DNA of 64,000 nucleotides from Flavobacteriaceae bacterium. Its GTDB lineage: Bacteria; Bacteroidota; Bacteroidia; Flavobacteriales; Weeksellaceae. A program made the translations under genes and the position numbers. Under the pieces are notes generated by a model. It ran no database searches. It saw only the letters and a list, made by a program, of their open reading frames with translations, and was not told the DNA's origin. Positions 180-6,021 of this stretch are shown in pieces (position 1 is the first letter of the stretch; each line of letters starts with the position of its first letter). The stretch covers positions 17,763 to 81,762 of the forward strand of contig JAGLAZ010000007.1 of NCBI GenBank assembly GCA_018260565.1. The letters are read 5' to 3'.

Positions 180-264
180 GGAGAGATGGCAGAGTGGTCG
201 ATTGCGGTAGTCTTGAAAACTATTGACTGTCACAGGTCCGGGGGTTCGAATCCCTCTCTCTCCG
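180..264 (+). tRNA. tRNA-Ser (anticodon UGA), class II with long variable arm
   Basis: Acceptor GGAGAGA (180-186) pairs with TCTCTCC (257-263), discriminator G264. Anticodon loop is CTTGAAA (TGA). It has a long variable arm and a GGTTCGAATCC T-loop. CCA is not encoded. Confidence 0.93.
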
Positions 265-267
265 CAA

Positions 268-300
268 AAATCCCTGTAAGTTATTGGCTTACAGGGATTT
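268..300. terminator. perfect 13-bp hairpin immediately after tRNA-Ser
   Basis: aaatccctgtaag (268-280) pairs with cttacagggattt (288-300) around a 7-nt loop. A-rich and T-rich flanks give it a bidirectional intrinsic-terminator shape. Confidence 0.6.
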
Positions 301-1194
301 ATATTTACGGTGCTAATATAGGAGCTAATTTGCTGATTTACAATTTAAATAGATTTAATCAATATATATATATATTAAGAAGTGAAATCTGGCTGAATGA
401 ATTCATCTGAATAAGCAATTTTTGCTGTGTTTGTTTTACTTTTAAAAATTATTTCATTACTTTTCCCAGCTGTGACATCCTTATAATTTTGAATGTAAGT
501 ATCTAAAATCCAAGTTTATTCGTAGCCGAGAGAGAATGAGTGACCATGAACACTACATTTGTGGAAAAAATTATCACAGAAATATTAATGTGGGATTGTT
601 CATTAATTTTTAAAATTTCCTTATCTAGATTATCAATAAGACAAGCAGTGTATGATGTTATTGCTTTATCGTAAAATTCATGGTAAGGTTTAGTATGTAA
701 TTTTTTTATGAATTCCGCGGTAGAACTTGAATTATCTTTAGACGACATGTTACTGAAGCGGAAATTATATGCTTTTTATCATGCACGAAGGTTTTCCAAA
801 TACTGACAAAAAAACTCGAAATCATTAATTTTATGATTTGTAGGCAAAATTGTATTGAAAACCATATATCCCTCGAGTAAAATTTTTATTTAAAAACCAT
901 TTTCAAAAAAACAATTTTTAAAAACTATGTAGTTATTTTTAAATTTTTCATCGCTTATAAATTAAATTTTATAACCATAGAATTTTGTATTTAAGTTTTT
1001 TACATCACCTAGAAAAGTAATTGGAATACTAGTTTCTATATCTTCATCAACAAGATAACAAGCGAGAAAATCTAAGTCCTAACTCAAAAATAATCTTTTT
1101 TACTCTGCGATGTTTAGTCTAGTTTTTTCCACTCGAAAATAATTATCTGAATATTTTTAATGTATTTATAATTTAACTAATAAACTAAATATAA

Positions 1195-2286
1195 TTACAA
1201 AAATCTAATCTGGAAATTTAACTTAATGAAACTACCCGCTGTTTCTTCAACGGTATCAGAATTAAGTATAACACCATAATCGCAACGGTGTGGATTACTA
1301 TCTGGGAAGTCAATTTTAGTATGGTTTAATAAATATTCCTGAAAATCGTTCCAGTTATAAATGTGGTAACATTCTAGATCACCATCTTTTTTAACAATGA
1401 TGTAACCTCCATTTGCATTAAATGTACCCGACCAAACTTTACCAGCCTTCATACCTAAGGCTGCATCAATCAGTAGTCTTTTTATTTTATAGGAATAAAA
1501 ATCAGAGTTTAGCGATAAATCAAAATCACAAGGATTTTTTTCAGATAAATATTTTACAAGGTCTGAAAGTTTGGGCGTGTATTTTGTGTAAGCACCCAGA
1601 ACAAGTTCTGCCAATATCTCCGGTAATCTGCTATCCACCAATTCTAAATTTGTTTTGAAAATTTCAGAATTCATTTTGTGGTATTTCAGTGTATAGCCGT
1701 TTTCTTTTAAATACTTAACACGATGGCTGTAGGAAGGCAAACCATTTATCATTTTTATTGTAACCGCAGATGGTTCAGGCTCAATTTTGTAGATGATATT
1801 TGAATTTTTTGAAGCGTTGAATAATGTAGGCTTACTTCCAATGTATGACTTAATACTAAAACCAAGTAAAGGTTCATGCTGAGTAATAGGGTCGTGAATT
1901 ACAACCCTGATATCCGCAGTTTGCACACGCTCGTCAGACAAGGAATTGGTATAGAATTTTGTAAGAGCAGGTTGAGCAAAGTCAAAGTTAAAAGATCTGT
2001 CGCTCATTATTCCTCTGGAGATACCGTCGTATAATTGATCTGCTATTTTTGAAACTTCTTCTACAGAAAGTTCAGACAAAACTTTGCCTTGTGAATTTTG
2101 AATGATTATTTTTTCATTTCTGAGATAATCTAAATCTTCATTACTACCACGGATGATTTTCAGAACTTTATAAAAAATATCCTCATTCTTATTCAAATTC
2201 TTGTCAGCAGCAAAAATATGTCCTTCTGCCAGCAATTTTACAAAAGCATAAAACTCACTCCATTCGCCTTTATTACCTTTAATCAC
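1195..2286 (-). CDS. Type II restriction endonuclease, HpaII-like (putative CCGG specificity)
   Basis: 363-aa ORF whose GTG start overlaps the stop of the upstream methylase (GTGA at 2283-2286). The N-terminus MIKGNKGEWSEFYAFVKLL matches my recollection of the HpaII-family REase signature. Its position directly downstream of an M.HpaII-like methylase supports the call. The family assignment is from memory. Confidence 0.7.
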   Translation of the reverse strand: MIKGNKGEWSEFYAFVKLLAEGHIFAADKNLNKNEDIFYKVLKIIRGSNEDLDYLRNEKIIIQNSQGKVLSELSVEEVSKIADQLYDGISRGIMSDRSFNFDFAQPALTKFYTNSLSDERVQTADIRVVIHDPITQHEPLLGFSIKSYIGSKPTLFNASKNSNIIYKIEPEPSAVTIKMINGLPSYSHRVKYLKENGYTLKYHKMNSEIFKTNLELVDSRLPEILAELVLGAYTKYTPKLSDLVKYLSEKNPCDFDLSLNSDFYSYKIKRLLIDAALGMKAGKVWSGTFNANGGYIIVKKDGDLECYHIYNWNDFQEYLLNHTKIDFPDSNPHRCDYGVILNSDTVEETAGSFIKLNFQIRFL

Positions 2287-3974
2287 AGCTTCTTAATTTT
2301 AAGTTTTCCAATTATCATTTCCGCAGTGGCTTGAATAGCGGGGATAGCGACTGAATTTCCAAATTGTTTGTAAGCTGAAGCATCAGCTACTACTATTTCA
2401 AAATTTTCAGGAAAACCCTGTAATCTTGCCCATTCACGAGGTGTCATTTTTCTGATGCCTTCACGATTAACTTCTCCGGTTATTTTGGTTGTAGGAGTAA
2501 AATCAGTAATGCGATCGTCAAACACTAAATTTCTTTCTCTACCCATACCACCACAAACAACAGAATTAGCAATTTCATCATCGCCAATAATTGCATACCC
2601 AAAACCATTGCCTTTACTTTCGTGTCTTGCCTTATGGTTTTCAAGAGTTTGTAAATACTGTGTTGAAAGATAATACTTTGTAGGAACTACAGATTTTTCT
2701 TTTACATCAGCAAAAGTTAATTTTTTTTCAAACGGTTCAGGATAGGTAAATTCATTAATTCCTGTACTTTTATGGAATCCGACGATAAAAATGCGCTCTC
2801 TATTTTGAGGAACACCGAAGTTTTTTGCATTCATAATTTGAGGCGCAGGCACAAAGTACCCTAAGTCTTCTCTAAGGACATTTAGAATTGTGCTTAATGT
2901 TTTCCCTTTATCGTGATTTCTGAGGCCTTTTACATTTTCAAGAAATATTGCTTTAGGCTGTTTTCTTTTAATTATTTCCGCTACATCAAAAAACAAAGTC
3001 CCTCTGGTATCTTCAAAACCACCTCTTTTGCCAGCAATAGAATAGGCCTGGCATGGAAAGCCTGCGCAAAGAATATCAAAATTCTCAGGGATATATGACT
3101 TTGTTTCCTCTTTGGTAATATCACCAAAAGGCATATCCCCGAAATTATGTTTGTAAGTTCTTTTTGCTTCTTTATCCCATTCGCTAGTGTACACACATTT
3201 GCCTCCCAGATTCTGTAATGCGATTCTAAAACCGCCAATCCCTGCAAACAAATCTATAAAAGTGAATTTCGGACTCTCCACCGGTGGAAACGGAACATTG
3301 AAGTAATCAAACATACCATATTGAATAGCTTCTTCCGCAACTTTATTCGAAAATTTTTCTTCAGGGTATTTTAATTCCAACAGTTCTTTGGCAAAGGCTA
3401 CCGCATCTTTTTTATAGGTGTTTTTTGTTTTTATATCACGGTTATGAATGTAGTGCGTTAAAACTGCCTCGTCGTTATTTTCAGGTTCTATTAGGCGAAT
3501 TTTAAACTGTTTGCCTCCTACGCTGTCTATTGAAATTTTTTCTTTAAAATCCATTCTTCTATTCTCTATTTTTTGCTCAATCTGTTTTACAATCTGATCA
3601 GTATTTTTTAAAATATTCTTACCCCAAAATCTTAAAACTTCCCAACCTTCGGAAAGTAAGGTTTGATTTACCAGTTTGTCTCGTGCAATATTTTTTTCAA
3701 TTTTAGAATGCCAAAACTCAATATTGGATCTATGTTCCATTTTTTTTGTCTGCCAGTCTTTACCATGCCAAAATTCACCGTCTATAAAGATTGCAATTTT
3801 CAATTTTTTAAAAGTAAGGTCGGGTTTTCCGAAAACTGAGTTATCATTCTTCCGGTATCTGTAGCCTTTGGAGAATAAAGCCTTCGCCAAAACAGTTTCA
3901 ATCTTTGTTCCCGAAGATTTCACTGCTTGCATGTTCTTTCTGCGTTGTTCTTCCGTAAGCCTGTCAGTTCTCAT
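2283..3974 (-). CDS. fusion protein: N-terminal Vsr-type very-short-patch repair endonuclease plus C-terminal C5-cytosine DNA methyltransferase
   Basis: One uninterrupted 563-aa ORF. Residues 1-~135 carry Vsr motifs (RRKNMQAVKSSGTKIE, GKPDLTF, FIDGEFWHG, GWEVLRFW). Residues ~237-563 carry C5-MTase motifs I FIDLFAGIGGF, IV GFPCQAYS, VI LENVKGL, VIII QNRERIFIVGF and X GNSVAIP. Confidence 0.9.
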   Translation of the reverse strand: MRTDRLTEEQRRKNMQAVKSSGTKIETVLAKALFSKGYRYRKNDNSVFGKPDLTFKKLKIAIFIDGEFWHGKDWQTKKMEHRSNIEFWHSKIEKNIARDKLVNQTLLSEGWEVLRFWGKNILKNTDQIVKQIEQKIENRRMDFKEKISIDSVGGKQFKIRLIEPENNDEAVLTHYIHNRDIKTKNTYKKDAVAFAKELLELKYPEEKFSNKVAEEAIQYGMFDYFNVPFPPVESPKFTFIDLFAGIGGFRIALQNLGGKCVYTSEWDKEAKRTYKHNFGDMPFGDITKEETKSYIPENFDILCAGFPCQAYSIAGKRGGFEDTRGTLFFDVAEIIKRKQPKAIFLENVKGLRNHDKGKTLSTILNVLREDLGYFVPAPQIMNAKNFGVPQNRERIFIVGFHKSTGINEFTYPEPFEKKLTFADVKEKSVVPTKYYLSTQYLQTLENHKARHESKGNGFGYAIIGDDEIANSVVCGGMGRERNLVFDDRITDFTPTTKITGEVNREGIRKMTPREWARLQGFPENFEIVVADASAYKQFGNSVAIPAIQATAEMIIGKLKIKKL

Positions 3975-3985
3975 TTTTTATGAAA

Positions 3986-4237
3986 TCACTTTTCATTTAC
4001 CTCCGAAAGTAAAATTTCAAATCCCAATACAAAAGCAAATTTTGAGAGGTAATCCAGACTACAGTTAAATTTACCGCTCTCAATTTTTGAAATAGTTGTT
4101 CTGCTGACATTCATTGACTCAGCAACCTGTTCCTGACTTAATCCTTTTTTTTCCCGAAGCTGTTTTAGCGATGAAGCGATTTTATGACGATTCTCCACCA
4201 AATCCTTTTCCGTAAATACTATAGCTGAATTTAACAC
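3986..4237 (-). CDS. XRE-family helix-turn-helix regulator (candidate controller/C protein of the RM operon)
   Basis: 83 aa with a GTG start. The motif LKQLREKKGLSQEQVAESMNVSRTTISKIESGK is a classic HTH_3/XRE motif. It lies 11 nt upstream of the methylase gene. Confidence 0.8.
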   Translation of the reverse strand: MLNSAIVFTEKDLVENRHKIASSLKQLREKKGLSQEQVAESMNVSRTTISKIESGKFNCSLDYLSKFAFVLGFEILLSEVNEK

Positions 4238-4249
4238 AACCTATAATAG

Positions 4250-4648
4250 TTATCTTACAACAAGAGTTCCTACATGTTTTACGCCCAGCTTATCTTGAAC
4301 TGTCAACCAGACATTTGTTTCCACTCCAGTAATACCCTTGGAAAGATCTAAATTAATTTTCTGCTCACTAACATTAATAACTTTACCTAAAACCTCTGAG
4401 TAATCGGCTTTTTGAATGGTTACGAATTCACCAATTAAGTCATTTGTGGAAACTGCAACAACCTCCAAATCTGAAAGTTTTACAGTATTTATCCCAGGAA
4501 AAGGGAGATTAGTCCCGAGCGGACGTATATCTGCACGATCTCTTTGACCATCAATTTTTAGTTCTAGTACTACATAATGTTGGTTCGGGTTTTCATCGGG
4601 AAGTGGCGTATGAAATTTCACAATCTGGCCTTCTTTAGTTGGTTCCAT
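4250..4648 (-). CDS. hypothetical protein, 132 aa, no recognisable family; first gene of the RM operon
   Basis: Clean ATG-started ORF ending 12 nt before the HTH gene on the same strand. Its composition is typical of coding DNA and looks beta-rich (V/I/T/K-rich). I see no signal peptide, TM segment or catalytic motif. Confidence 0.6.
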   Translation of the reverse strand: MEPTKEGQIVKFHTPLPDENPNQHYVVLELKIDGQRDRADIRPLGTNLPFPGINTVKLSDLEVVAVSTNDLIGEFVTIQKADYSEVLGKVINVSEQKINLDLSKGITGVETNVWLTVQDKLGVKHVGTLVVR

Positions 4649-4691
4649 AACTATATATTATTTAATAATGTAAATATAAACACTTTTTATA

Positions 4692-4707
4692 GTTCAATAT
4701 ATTGAAC
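4692..4707. promoter_or_regulatory. perfect 16-bp palindrome GTTCAATATATTGAAC, candidate operator (C-box-like) of the RM operon
   Basis: It lies 44-59 nt upstream of the ATG at 4648 on the operon strand. It sits just upstream of a near-consensus -7 box (TATATTTA on the minus strand). An HTH regulator is encoded in the operon. Confidence 0.45.
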
Positions 4708-5628
4708 GGGTGTTGAATAATTAAATATATATTTGTATTGACAAATCAACGATAAGCGTAAGCTATCGTTGGGTTTCTTAAAACTGCTAAATTTCAAAAA
4801 ATTCCTAAAATGATAGACATTCGCCTGTGCCATATCGGCGTGGGCTGTAAGTCATCAATCCCCCTAAGGTATTACCGCATATAATATGAAAATAATTCAC
4901 TATTGAACTATACTGAATTTTAACTTTTCTTTAAAAACATTATTTATGTATTAGTTATTTGCTTATTGTAAGTTTCATTTTATATCCCCTGCTCCACAAA
5001 GTGTCCTAACTTTGAGGAAAAAAAAACGGAGATAATTGAATGGTTTTGTATTGTAAACTGCAACTAAAGTTTAAATAAGAAAATAGTTGTTTTTTTTATA
5101 TCAAACCTTTCCTCTAAATGAATAAAAAATTTATATTTACCTCTTAATCTCATTAATTTTAAATTAAGTCATTAAACATACCACAGTTGCTTTGAAAGAT
5201 TTAAAAGTTTATTTAACAGACTACCATACTGACTATACGAGAAAATACACCTAAGTAATCAGAATAAAGTATATTTCATTGAGCAAATTCCAGTGGGACT
5301 GATCGGACGAGAATTTAATGGTGGATAGTTTTAAAGGTTATTAGCGGAAGGAGAAATACTAATGCAGTTATGGAAACGTGGAAAATATATGGGAAAAAGA
5401 TAAAGAATTGAACCGAAGCTACACAGCAGATTTTGAGGTATATGGAAAAGAATTTAGAAAGAATGTTAAATCTGAAGTTGAATCTTATATTGATCAGATA
5501 GTGAAGAAAATAAACATTATTAAAGCACTTTCAAACCTATAAAATAATGATGGAGTCAAGAAAACCATTTCAAAAACAGGGAGAAACTGAAAATCCATAA
5601 GAGTAAGGAATTCAAAAGATATAATTTT

Positions 5629-6021
5629 ATGAAAAACCTTTTAATATTAGCAATTGTATCGCTAATGTTTGGTATTGCAAATGCCCAAAGAATACAAAAC
5701 AGTTCTGGAAGTACTATTGGAATGATAGAAAGTGGAAAAGTAAAAAACAGTTCTGGAAGTACAATAGGCTATATTGAAAATGGCCGTATTAAGAACAGTT
5801 CTGGGAGTACCATTGGTATATATAATAATGGGCGTGTACAGAATGCTTCCGGTAGCACAATTGGCTATATAGATAAAGGCCGAGTGAAAAACAGCTCTGG
5901 AAATACCATTGGTATGATTGAAAATGGACGCATTAAAGATGGTTCAGGAAAAACACTTGGTTCTTATAGTGGGGTTAAACCTATTGATGCAGCACTTTTT
6001 CTCCTGTTCTTTTTTAAATAA
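5629..6021 (+). CDS. secreted tandem-repeat protein (6 x 16-aa NSSGSTIGxIExGRVK repeats; resembles '5-fold beta-flower' proteins)
   Basis: N-terminal signal peptide MKNLLILAIVSLMFGIANAQ, then six 16-residue repeats, then a hydrophobic tail DAALFLLFFFK. Confidence 0.75.
   Translation: MKNLLILAIVSLMFGIANAQRIQNSSGSTIGMIESGKVKNSSGSTIGYIENGRIKNSSGSTIGIYNNGRVQNASGSTIGYIDKGRVKNSSGNTIGMIENGRIKDGSGKTLGSYSGVKPIDAALFLLFFFK
5698..5985 (+). repeat. six in-frame 48-bp tandem repeats inside the repeat-protein gene
   Basis: Units start with aacagttctggaagtac... at 5698, 5746, 5794, 5842 and 5890, with a degenerate sixth unit at 5938. The copies diverge mostly at third codon positions. Confidence 0.85.

What the first reader, a model, noticed from the sequence alone, without database searches (positions are those of the whole stretch)
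2283..3974. Vsr very-short-patch endonuclease fused in frame to a C5-cytosine methyltransferase through a ~95-aa linker
Directly seen: one ORF with Vsr motifs in residues 1-~135, complete C5-MTase motifs I-X from ~237, and an unassigned segment at ~140-235 (MDFKEKISIDSVGGKQFKIRLIEPENNDEAVLTHYIHNRD...). Established knowledge: Vsr repairs T:G mismatches made by deamination of 5-methylcytosine and is usually a separate gene next to dcm-type methylases. A physical fusion would couple the mutagenic activity to its repair. The Vsr part keeps the catalytic GKPDLTF Asp. It seems to lack the Cys residues I remember as the E. coli Vsr zinc ligands (FIDGEFWHGKDW versus ..GCFWH.H.C), which suggests a divergent fold stabilisation. 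Internal Met141 and Met221 could also allow a stand-alone methylase isoform.
Basis: partly seen in the sequence, partly recalled or inferred. Interest (0 to 1): 0.6.

Follow-up and report, generated by a model that had tools for sequence, protein, structure and literature searches.

The report
Vsr repair nuclease fused to HpaII-type methylase
One real gene joins a DNA-repair nuclease (Vsr) to the cytosine methylase whose mutational damage it mends; this fused form recurs in Bacteroidota, differs from the usual two overlapping genes by one base, and is a modest variant of a known restriction-modification system.

Summary
Window 2283-3974, on the minus strand, is one 563-aa ORF. It has a Vsr domain (residues 1-140), a conserved 96-aa segment (141-236) and a complete C5-cytosine methyltransferase (237-555). 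It lies in a tight operon: 132-aa unknown ORF, C-like HTH, V~M, R.HpaII-family nuclease.

At least 120 protein clusters (71-86% identity, 546-569 aa) share this architecture, so the fused form is not peculiar to this assembly.

The "linker" is not a linker. It is the N-terminal domain of a subfamily of C5 methylases, and stand-alone members start exactly at the Met141 equivalent.

Close relatives keep vsr and the methylase as two overlapping genes. They differ from the fused form by +1 or -1 nt just before that ATG. On a methylase tree, the fused and unfused (split or vsr-less) forms are interleaved.

The zinc-ligand loss is real, but it is shared by all the close stand-alone Bacteroidota Vsr proteins I aligned, and the catalytic residues are 100% conserved.

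Met141 is 93% conserved, so an internal start is possible but untested. Met221 is not conserved.

Most likely function (inferred, not shown): CCGG methylation plus T:G nicking in one polypeptide.

The architecture is already visible in public annotation, though I found no paper on it. Interest is modest.

The parts
2283..3974 (-). V~M ORF, 563 aa: Vsr domain + methylase N-terminal domain + C5-cytosine methyltransferase
3555..3974 (-). Vsr domain (residues 1-140). Catalytic D52 (3819-3821), D65 and H70 (3765-3767); intercalating F68/W69/W88. Zinc-less variant (E67, K72, W74, K119).
3552..3581 (-). Fusion junction: A-rich 27 nt (gagcaaaaaatagagaatagaaga) followed by the ATG of Met141 (3552-3554), which is the ancestral methylase start codon. 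Split relatives differ here by +1 or -1 nt.
3267..3554 (-). Methylase N-terminal domain (residues 141-236). Predicted beta-hairpin plus three helices, with a conserved THY(L/I)HN motif. No known family.
2286..3266 (-). C5-MTase catalytic and target-recognition domains (residues 237-563). Motif I FAGIGG, motif IV GFPCQ (Cys308, 3051-3053), ENV, QNRER, GNSV.
1195..2286 (-). R.HpaII-family restriction endonuclease, 363 aa. Its GTG start overlaps the V~M stop codon (GTGA).
   Evidence: (PF09561 E 6.9e-100, full length)
3986..4237 (-). 83-aa Xre/HTH_3 protein; its best PADLOC match is an R-M control (C) protein. Its stop codon lies 11 nt before the V~M start.
4250..4648 (-). 132-aa ORF of unknown function, 12 nt upstream of the HTH gene. 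The pair recurs upstream of other C5 MTases.
4692..4707 (.). Perfect 16-bp palindrome GTTCAATATATTGAAC upstream of the operon. Candidate operator, untested.
   Evidence: read from the sequence

Best explanation
The ORF is a genuine bifunctional gene of an HpaII-type (CCGG) Type II restriction-modification operon.

Origin (shown). Relatives carry a vsr gene whose 3' end overlaps the start of an M.HpaII-like methylase gene. A one-base change of frame in the A-rich ~30 nt before the methylase ATG removes the vsr stop from the reading frame and joins the two proteins. Met141 is the old methylase start. Residues 141-236 are the methylase's own N-terminal domain.

Also shown: the domain content, conservation of the catalytic residues, the neighbouring genes, the split relatives, and repeated switching between the fused and unfused states.

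Function (inferred).
- The C-terminal part methylates C5 of cytosine in CCGG and so protects the genome from the co-translated R.HpaII-like nuclease.
- Spontaneous deamination of 5-methylcytosine then gives T:G mismatches at these sites.
- The N-terminal Vsr domain nicks 5' of the T so that a short patch is resynthesised back to C.
- Fusion gives 1:1 co-expression and co-inheritance of the mutagenic activity and its repair on a mobile cassette.
- A second, methylase-only product initiated at Met141 is possible.
For: Domains and neighbours:
- Domain matches lie above curated cut-offs. PDB matches are M.HhaI (E 3e-72) and E. coli Vsr (E 1e-15).
- An R.HpaII-family gene overlaps the 3' end.
- The same V~M + R.HpaII pair sits in unrelated neighbourhoods in an Empedobacter brevis assembly and a Dysgonomonas assembly.

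The fusion is conserved:
- The 120 best clusters all hold Vsr + DNA_methylase in 546-569 aa.
- In 121 fused sequences D52, D65, W69, H70, W88 and D99 are each 100% conserved.

Split relatives:
- In L010 and L012, vsr (141/142 aa) overlaps a 418-aa methylase that is 73% identical to query residues 141-558, with its M1 aligned to M141.
- The distance from the FWG codons to the ATG is 75 nt in four fused loci, 76 nt in L010/L012 and 74 nt in L014.
- Six unfused methylases (three with an overlapping vsr, three with no vsr) are scattered among 121 fused ones on the tree, which needs at least 4 changes of state.

The N-terminal domain belongs to the methylase:
- Of 106 other proteins carrying it (mostly short fragments), 83 begin at the residue aligned to Met141.
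Against: - No biochemical evidence: neither CCGG specificity nor T:G nicking was tested.
- I could not compare the target-recognition domain with an authentic M.HpaII sequence.
- The zinc site of E. coli Vsr is absent. It is equally absent from the close stand-alone Vsr proteins.
- CCGG is not depleted in the genome (O/E 0.88, 2786 sites). This gives no sign of long residence or of activity.
- Fused forms are rare among species-representative genomes: 2 of 201 in the family and none of 400 further genomes in the phylum.
Confidence: 0.85

Rival explanations
1. Assembly artefact. In this genome vsr and the methylase are really two overlapping genes, and a homopolymer miscount in the A-rich junction made them look fused.
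For: The junction holds an A6 run. Split relatives differ by exactly one base there. Reads could not be inspected.
Against: The identical 75-nt spacing and open frame occur in four independent loci I read (window, L002, L005, L013). The fused length occurs in at least 120 clusters from many assemblies. The fused state is therefore a common natural one, and nothing about this copy is odd.
Confidence: 0.03
2. One gene, two products. Besides the 563-aa V~M protein, translation also starts at Met141 (the ancestral start) and gives a 423-aa methylase without Vsr, so methylase exceeds repair nuclease in amount. This is an addition to the best explanation rather than a replacement.
For: Met141 is kept in 113 of 121 fused proteins. 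That is more than any neighbour within four residues on the N-terminal side (32-84%) and similar to the conserved E145, K146 and I147 just after it (93-97%). Stand-alone and split relatives start translation exactly there. The run-up is A-rich, with A at -3 in all four fused loci. From memory, that fits start-site context in Bacteroidota, which mostly lack Shine-Dalgarno sequences.
Against: Eight of 121 fused members have Ile, Leu, Val or Asn there, so it is not obligatory. The A-richness also follows from the Lys/Glu/Asn-rich coding sequence. No TAnnTTTG -7 box lies in the vsr part. There are no expression data.
Confidence: 0.35
3. The Vsr domain is a decayed or repurposed remnant (inactive, or a DNA-binding or restriction module) and not a working T:G repair nuclease.
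For: It lacks the structural zinc site of E. coli Vsr. Vsr-like domains are used as effectors in other defence proteins, for example Type III-B CoCoNuT (PMC11090510).
Against: All catalytic and intercalating residues are 100% conserved in 121 sequences. It scores above the NCBIfam vsr cut-off. It is 63-71% identical to ordinary stand-alone Vsr proteins that share the zinc-less motif. A separate, intact R.HpaII-family nuclease already supplies restriction.
Confidence: 0.05

Closest known systems
HpaII restriction-modification system of Haemophilus parainfluenzae (vsr-like ORF, M.HpaII, R.HpaII; CCGG). Gene order recalled from Kulakauskas et al. 1994, Gene 142:9; not checked here.
   Same: Same three activities in the same order (V, M, R). 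The nuclease is a full-length member of the R.HpaII Pfam family. One NCBI MAG record names a close fused homologue (P0090, 72% identical) 'modification methyltransferase HpaII'.
   Different: V and M are one polypeptide here. The methylase carries an extra ~96-aa N-terminal domain. A C-like HTH gene and a 132-aa ORF precede the operon. Identity to authentic M.HpaII was not measured.
Split vsr / M.HpaII-like / R.HpaII loci of Bacteroidota (L010, GCA_001013295.1; L012, Chryseobacterium chendengshani GCA_019449355.1; L014)
   Same: The Vsr is 69-71% identical and the methylase 73% identical, with the same N-terminal domain and the same zinc-less Vsr motif.
   Different: There are two overlapping genes (overlap 11-14 nt), out of frame by +1 or -1 nt relative to the fused form. 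L010 and L012 also have a 220-aa gene between M and R and an AAA_5 gene downstream.
E. coli dcm-vsr (overlapping genes; Vsr structure 1cw0)
   Same: A C5 methylase and its very-short-patch repair nuclease are encoded by overlapping, translationally linked genes. The Vsr catalytic and DNA-intercalating residues are the same.
   Different: In E. coli vsr lies downstream of dcm (from memory); here it lies upstream and is fused. The target is CCWGG there and presumed CCGG here. E. coli Vsr has a Cys3His zinc site that this protein lacks. dcm is not part of a restriction system.
C5 methylases with N-terminal extensions (M.SsoII, M.EcoRII, M.MspI; regulatory or DNA-binding N-terminal regions, from memory)
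   Same: There is an extra domain in front of motif I. In genome G035 a C-like HTH is fused in frame to the same N-terminal domain + methylase, which echoes M.SsoII-type self-regulation.
   Different: No sequence or fold similarity of residues 141-236 to anything was found. Its function is unknown.

Membership tests
Vsr very-short-patch repair endonuclease (PF03852 / TIGR00632) | Profile score above the curated cut-off | tested here: met
   Pfam 105.9 bits (cut-off 27). TIGR00632 155.4 bits (cut-off 97.85), covering residues 3-119 of the protein and positions 2-118 of the 119-position profile.
Vsr very-short-patch repair endonuclease (PF03852 / TIGR00632) | Catalytic Asp51 and His69, and the intercalating Phe67/Trp68/Trp86 of E. 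coli Vsr | tested here: met
   D52, H70, F68, W69 and W88 align to 1cw0. All are 98-100% conserved in 121 fused homologues.
Vsr very-short-patch repair endonuclease (PF03852 / TIGR00632) | Structural zinc site (Cys66, His71, Cys73, Cys117 of E. coli Vsr; ligand list from memory) | tested here: not met
   The aligned residues are E67, K72, W74 and K119. The same replacement is invariant in 10 stand-alone Bacteroidota Vsr proteins. The site is therefore a feature of one branch of the family and does not define it. A canonical Cys-type Vsr also exists in the same bacterial family (L023).
Vsr very-short-patch repair endonuclease (PF03852 / TIGR00632) | Nicks 5' of T in a T:G mismatch within the cognate methylase's site | not testable with these tools
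   This needs an oligonucleotide nicking assay.
C5-cytosine DNA methyltransferase (PF00145 / TIGR00675) | Motifs I (FxGxGG), IV (PCQ with catalytic Cys), VI (ENV), VIII (QxRxR) and X (GNSV), with a profile score above the cut-off | tested here: met
   339.6 bits (cut-off 22) and 314.6 bits (cut-off 100.65). FAGIGG 243-248, PCQ 307-309, ENV 346-348, QNRER 390-394 and GNSV 539-542 are invariant. M.HhaI matches at E 3e-72.
HpaII-type (CCGG) Type II R-M system | Cognate nuclease of the R.HpaII family next to the methylase | tested here: met
   PF09561 RE_HpaII, E 6.9e-100, residues 5-362 matched to profile positions 1-359 of 359. Its start overlaps the V~M stop.
HpaII-type (CCGG) Type II R-M system | Methylase target-recognition domain like M.HpaII, and methylation of CCGG | not tested
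   No authentic M.HpaII sequence was on hand. The only hint is that one MAG record names a 72%-identical fused homologue (P0090) after HpaII. Methylation needs an experiment.
C-protein-controlled R-M system | Small HTH control protein with a palindromic C-box upstream of its own gene | tested here: inconclusive
   The HTH protein's best PADLOC match is Control_protein (E 7.5e-14). A perfect 16-bp palindrome lies at 4692-4707, but upstream of the 132-aa ORF, and it is not a known C-box. The Empedobacter and Dysgonomonas cassettes have no called HTH/Xre gene next to V~M; Empedobacter has only two short unannotated ORFs upstream.

The most novel reading that the evidence does not exclude
The three-helix part of residues 141-236 may be a shared docking module. 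It would physically couple Vsr to its methylase even when they are separate proteins.

It is found in three settings:
- at the N-terminus of methylases;
- between Vsr and the methylase in fusions;
- as a C-terminal tail on orphan Vsr proteins that have no methylase domain (L018, L019).

The one-base fused/split toggle in the A-rich junction would then be a simple natural switch that tunes the ratio of repair to methylation.
Probability: 0.1. Interest if true: 0.55.

Novelty: new variant of a known kind. Interest (0 to 1): 0.3.

Why it matters
C5 methylation is mutagenic, because 5-methylcytosine deaminates to thymine. Mobile restriction-modification cassettes therefore impose a mutational cost on a new host.

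Carrying the matching repair nuclease in the same polypeptide guarantees that the cost and its remedy arrive and are expressed together.

The family offers a natural experiment. Closely related fused, split and Vsr-less versions of the same methylase exist, and they differ at the junction by a single base. One could therefore test whether physical coupling lowers C-to-T mutation at the target site more than co-expression does.

Two practical points also follow:
- The automatic name 'DNA mismatch endonuclease Vsr' hides the fact that these 560-aa proteins are the methylase of a restriction system.
- The 96-aa methylase N-terminal domain has no family assignment.

Tried and rejected
- Structure of the whole protein from 12 close homologues: mean pLDDT 61, too poor to use.
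- Structure of residues 141-236 from 35 diverse homologues: pLDDT 67, a beta-hairpin plus three helices. Foldseek against the PDB gave no match below E 1.7.
- Other searches for residues 141-236 found nothing. These were a Pfam scan of all 35 members, a profile search of PDB sequences and phmmer.
- CCGG avoidance as a sign of activity: O/E 0.88, rank 17 of 256 tetramers, not informative.
- Bacteroidota-type promoter boxes (TTTG...TAnnTTTG): none in the vsr part. The scan also found none upstream of the operon, so it is not sensitive enough to count as evidence.
- Island borders next to tRNA-Ser: no direct repeat of the tRNA end was found.
- Seven full-text searches found no paper describing a Vsr-methylase fusion. 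The Iyer/Aravind review, which I vaguely recall as mentioning such architectures, is not in the library.
- Met221 as an internal start: rejected, since it is Met in only 2 of 121.
- The idea that the N-terminal domain depends on Vsr: rejected, because several methylases with this domain have no vsr nearby.
Full report
**What is there**

Window 2283-3974 holds one ORF of 563 aa on the minus strand.
- Residues 3-136 match Vsr: Pfam PF03852 at E 9.5e-31, plus a DUF559-like second half. NCBIfam TIGR00632 gives 155 bits against a cut-off of 98.
- Residues 237-555 match the C5-cytosine methyltransferase family: PF00145 at E 2.8e-101, and TIGR00675 at 315 bits against a cut-off of 101.
- Among solved structures, the methylase part matches M.HhaI (E 3e-72) and the N-terminal part matches E. 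coli Vsr (E 1e-15).
- All methylase motifs are present and invariant in homologues.

The strand was simply not stated.

**Surroundings**

The gene sits in a tightly packed minus-strand operon.
- A 132-aa ORF with no family match lies at 4250-4648.
- Twelve nucleotides downstream is an 83-aa Xre-type HTH protein (3986-4237). Its best match in PADLOC is an R-M control protein (E 7.5e-14).
- Eleven nucleotides further on is the V~M gene.
- Last is a 363-aa nuclease (1195-2286) whose GTG start overlaps the V~M stop (GTGA). It matches the whole R.HpaII family profile (PF09561, E 6.9e-100).

The operon lies about 1 kb from a tRNA-Ser gene. The genome is 1.87 Mb and nearly complete, and it holds only this one copy.

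This is therefore an HpaII-type Type II restriction-modification system. CCGG specificity is inferred from the nuclease family and was not shown.

**Is the fusion real?**

The 120 best clusters in the 5.8-billion-protein collection are 71-86% identical and 546-569 aa long. Every one carries both Pfam domains.
- The named ones come from Chryseobacterium, Empedobacter, Capnocytophaga, Dysgonomonas and Bacteroidota MAGs.
- NCBI names them 'DNA mismatch endonuclease Vsr'.

In Empedobacter brevis and Dysgonomonas assemblies the same V~M gene is followed by an overlapping R.HpaII-family gene. The surrounding neighbourhoods are unrelated, and no HTH gene was called next to V~M. That pattern is what a mobile two-gene cassette would show.

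In 121 fused sequences, D52, D65, W69, H70, W88 and D99 of the Vsr part are each 100% conserved. Both halves are therefore under selection.

A homopolymer error at this one locus is formally open but unlikely.

**The 'linker'**

I searched residues 141-236 alone against 1.84 billion cluster representatives. This found 117 proteins, none with a known annotation for this part.
- The full-length hits are stand-alone C5 methylases of 401-528 aa with different target-recognition domains.
- In these, the segment is the very N-terminus and begins at the Met141 equivalent.
- Of 106 hits with a residue aligned to Met141, 83 start there and 98 have Met there.
- Two such methylases have no vsr upstream.

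The segment is therefore the methylase's own N-terminal domain and not a spacer created by the fusion.

Its fold could not be assigned.
- AlphaFold2 on 35 diverse homologues gives a beta-hairpin plus three helices at pLDDT 67.
- Nothing similar turned up in the PDB by Foldseek, in PDB sequences by profile or in Pfam.
- A REBASE-derived PADLOC methylase model does extend into it, matching residues 167-561.

**How the fusion arose**

Stand-alone Vsr proteins of 136-191 aa (mostly ~140-145) that are 63-74% identical to the Vsr part are common in Bacteroidota.

For the best hit (L010) and the best named hit (L012, Chryseobacterium chendengshani), vsr overlaps by 11-14 nt the start of a 418-aa methylase gene, and an R.HpaII-family gene follows further downstream. 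That methylase is 73% identical to query residues 141-558, and its first Met aligns with Met141.

I then read the junctions directly. The distance from the conserved FWG codons to the methylase ATG is:
- 75 nt in the four fused loci (window, L002, L005, L013);
- 76 nt in L010 and L012;
- 74 nt in a third split locus, L014.

So +1 and -1 indels in an A-rich stretch separate the two-gene form from the one-gene form.

On a tree of the methylase parts, six unfused methylases (three with an overlapping vsr, three with no vsr upstream) lie scattered among 121 fused ones. Well-supported branches force at least four changes of state. The junction has therefore switched repeatedly.

Among one-genome-per-species samples the fused form is uncommon.
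- It occurs in 2 of 201 genomes in the family, and in none of 400 further genomes across the phylum.
- Unfused M.HpaII-like methylases with the N-terminal domain occur in roughly fifteen genomes.

**Zinc site**

From memory, the zinc ligands of E. coli Vsr are Cys66, His71, Cys73 and Cys117. In the alignment to 1cw0 all four are replaced, by E67, K72, W74 and K119.

These replacements are 82-100% conserved in the fused family. The motif D(G/S)EFWHGKDW is invariant in ten stand-alone Bacteroidota Vsr proteins.

A canonical Cys-type Vsr also exists in the same bacterial family (L023).

The zinc-less state is thus a branch-wide trait of ordinary Vsr proteins and has nothing to do with the fusion.

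**Internal starts**

Met221 is Met in only 2 of 121 fused proteins; it is Ile in 87. I dismiss it.

Met141 is Met in 113 of 121. Its N-terminal neighbours are 32-84% conserved, and E145, K146 and I147 just after it are 93-97%.
- It is the ancestral start codon, and split relatives initiate there.
- A methylase-only second product is therefore plausible; I put it at about 35%.
- Eight members lack it, and I have no expression data.
- A scan for Bacteroidota-type promoter boxes was uninformative.

**Mechanism**

Shown:
- one polypeptide with an intact Vsr active site and an intact C5-methylase active site;
- translation linked to an R.HpaII-family nuclease.

Inferred from established knowledge of the families:
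- The methylase part modifies CCGG. M.HpaII methylates the inner C (from memory), and HpaII cuts only unmethylated CCGG (PMC12907096).
- Deamination of 5mC then gives T:G in CTGG/CCGG.
- The Vsr part nicks 5' of the T.
- A short patch is resynthesised by DNA polymerase I and sealed by ligase, as in E. coli (from memory).

Fusion enforces equal synthesis and joint inheritance. Whether it also improves targeting of repair is unknown. CCGG is not depleted in the genome (O/E 0.88), which says nothing either way.

**Comparison and novelty**

A vsr gene beside a C5 methylase is classical. Examples are E. coli dcm-vsr and the vsr-like ORF of the HpaII system (both from memory) and the Neisseria V.NgoAXIII/XIV enzymes (PMC6116569).

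New relative to those descriptions are the in-frame fusion, its one-base origin and its repeated reversal. However, the architecture is already visible in public protein annotation.

Seven full-text searches found no paper on it, and I could not consult REBASE.

I rate it a new variant of a known kind, with modest interest (0.3).

**Side observations**

1. A small clade of orphan Vsr proteins carries the three helices of the methylase N-terminal domain as a C-terminal tail, with no methylase behind it.
   - The examples are L018 (231 aa), L019 (219 aa) and a Chryseobacterium koreense protein.
   - Either these are relics of fused genes that lost the methylase, or the helices have a function tied to Vsr.
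2. The 132-aa ORF plus HTH pair recurs upstream of other C5 methylases. In one genome (G035) the HTH is itself fused in frame to the same N-terminal domain and methylase.
   - The methylase N-terminus therefore seems to be a repeated site of gene fusion with whatever lies upstream.

Noticed in passing
L018:3148-3843 (-) and L019:3394-4053 (+): Orphan Vsr proteins (231 and 219 aa, 55% identical to each other) carry a C-terminal tail made of the three helices of the methylase N-terminal domain (…KYPE(D/E)-IT--(V/I)AEDVL(Q/K)Y…). No methylase domain follows. They sit in housekeeping neighbourhoods (tRNAs/tuf; rarA-like/transaldolase). The homologue search found only 3 clusters, one of them named Vsr of Chryseobacterium koreense.
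   Followed up: partly
window 4250-4648 (-) with 3986-4237 (-); L023:1501-2164; L025:1438-3392: The unknown 132-aa ORF plus the C-like HTH form a recurring pair upstream of different C5 methylases in the same bacterial family. In genome G035 (L025) the HTH is fused in frame to the N-terminal domain + methylase (403 aa read in L025, running off its end; the genome search gives a 521-aa open frame).
   Followed up: partly
window 4692-4707: A perfect 16-bp palindrome, GTTCAATATATTGAAC, lies about 45 nt upstream of the 132-aa ORF start. It is a candidate operator for the HTH protein. A second hairpin, AACGATAGC..GCTTATCGTT, lies about 60 nt further upstream.
   Followed up: no
L023:943-1395 (-): A canonical Cys-type (zinc-site) Vsr (…NGCFWHGHEGC…VWECDL) lies next to a C5 methylase system in the same bacterial family. 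Both Vsr types therefore coexist in this lineage.
   Followed up: no
whole genome G000: ACGT (O/E 0.48), CTAG (0.52), GATC (0.68) and TCGA (0.70) are the most avoided palindromic tetramers. CCGG is not avoided (0.88).
   Followed up: no
window 5629-6021 (+): A 130-aa ORF with a signal-peptide-like start contains five 48-nt tandem repeats (5688-5927) that encode a 16-residue unit of the form NSSGSTIG(M/Y)IE(N/S)G(R/K)(V/I)K.
   Followed up: no
window 180-265 (+) and 266-5400: A tRNA-Ser(TGA) gene lies about 1 kb from the restriction-modification operon. The stretch between them is AT-rich (GC 0.24-0.35 against a genome value of 0.357). No integrase gene was seen and no repeat of the tRNA end was found.
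   Followed up: partly
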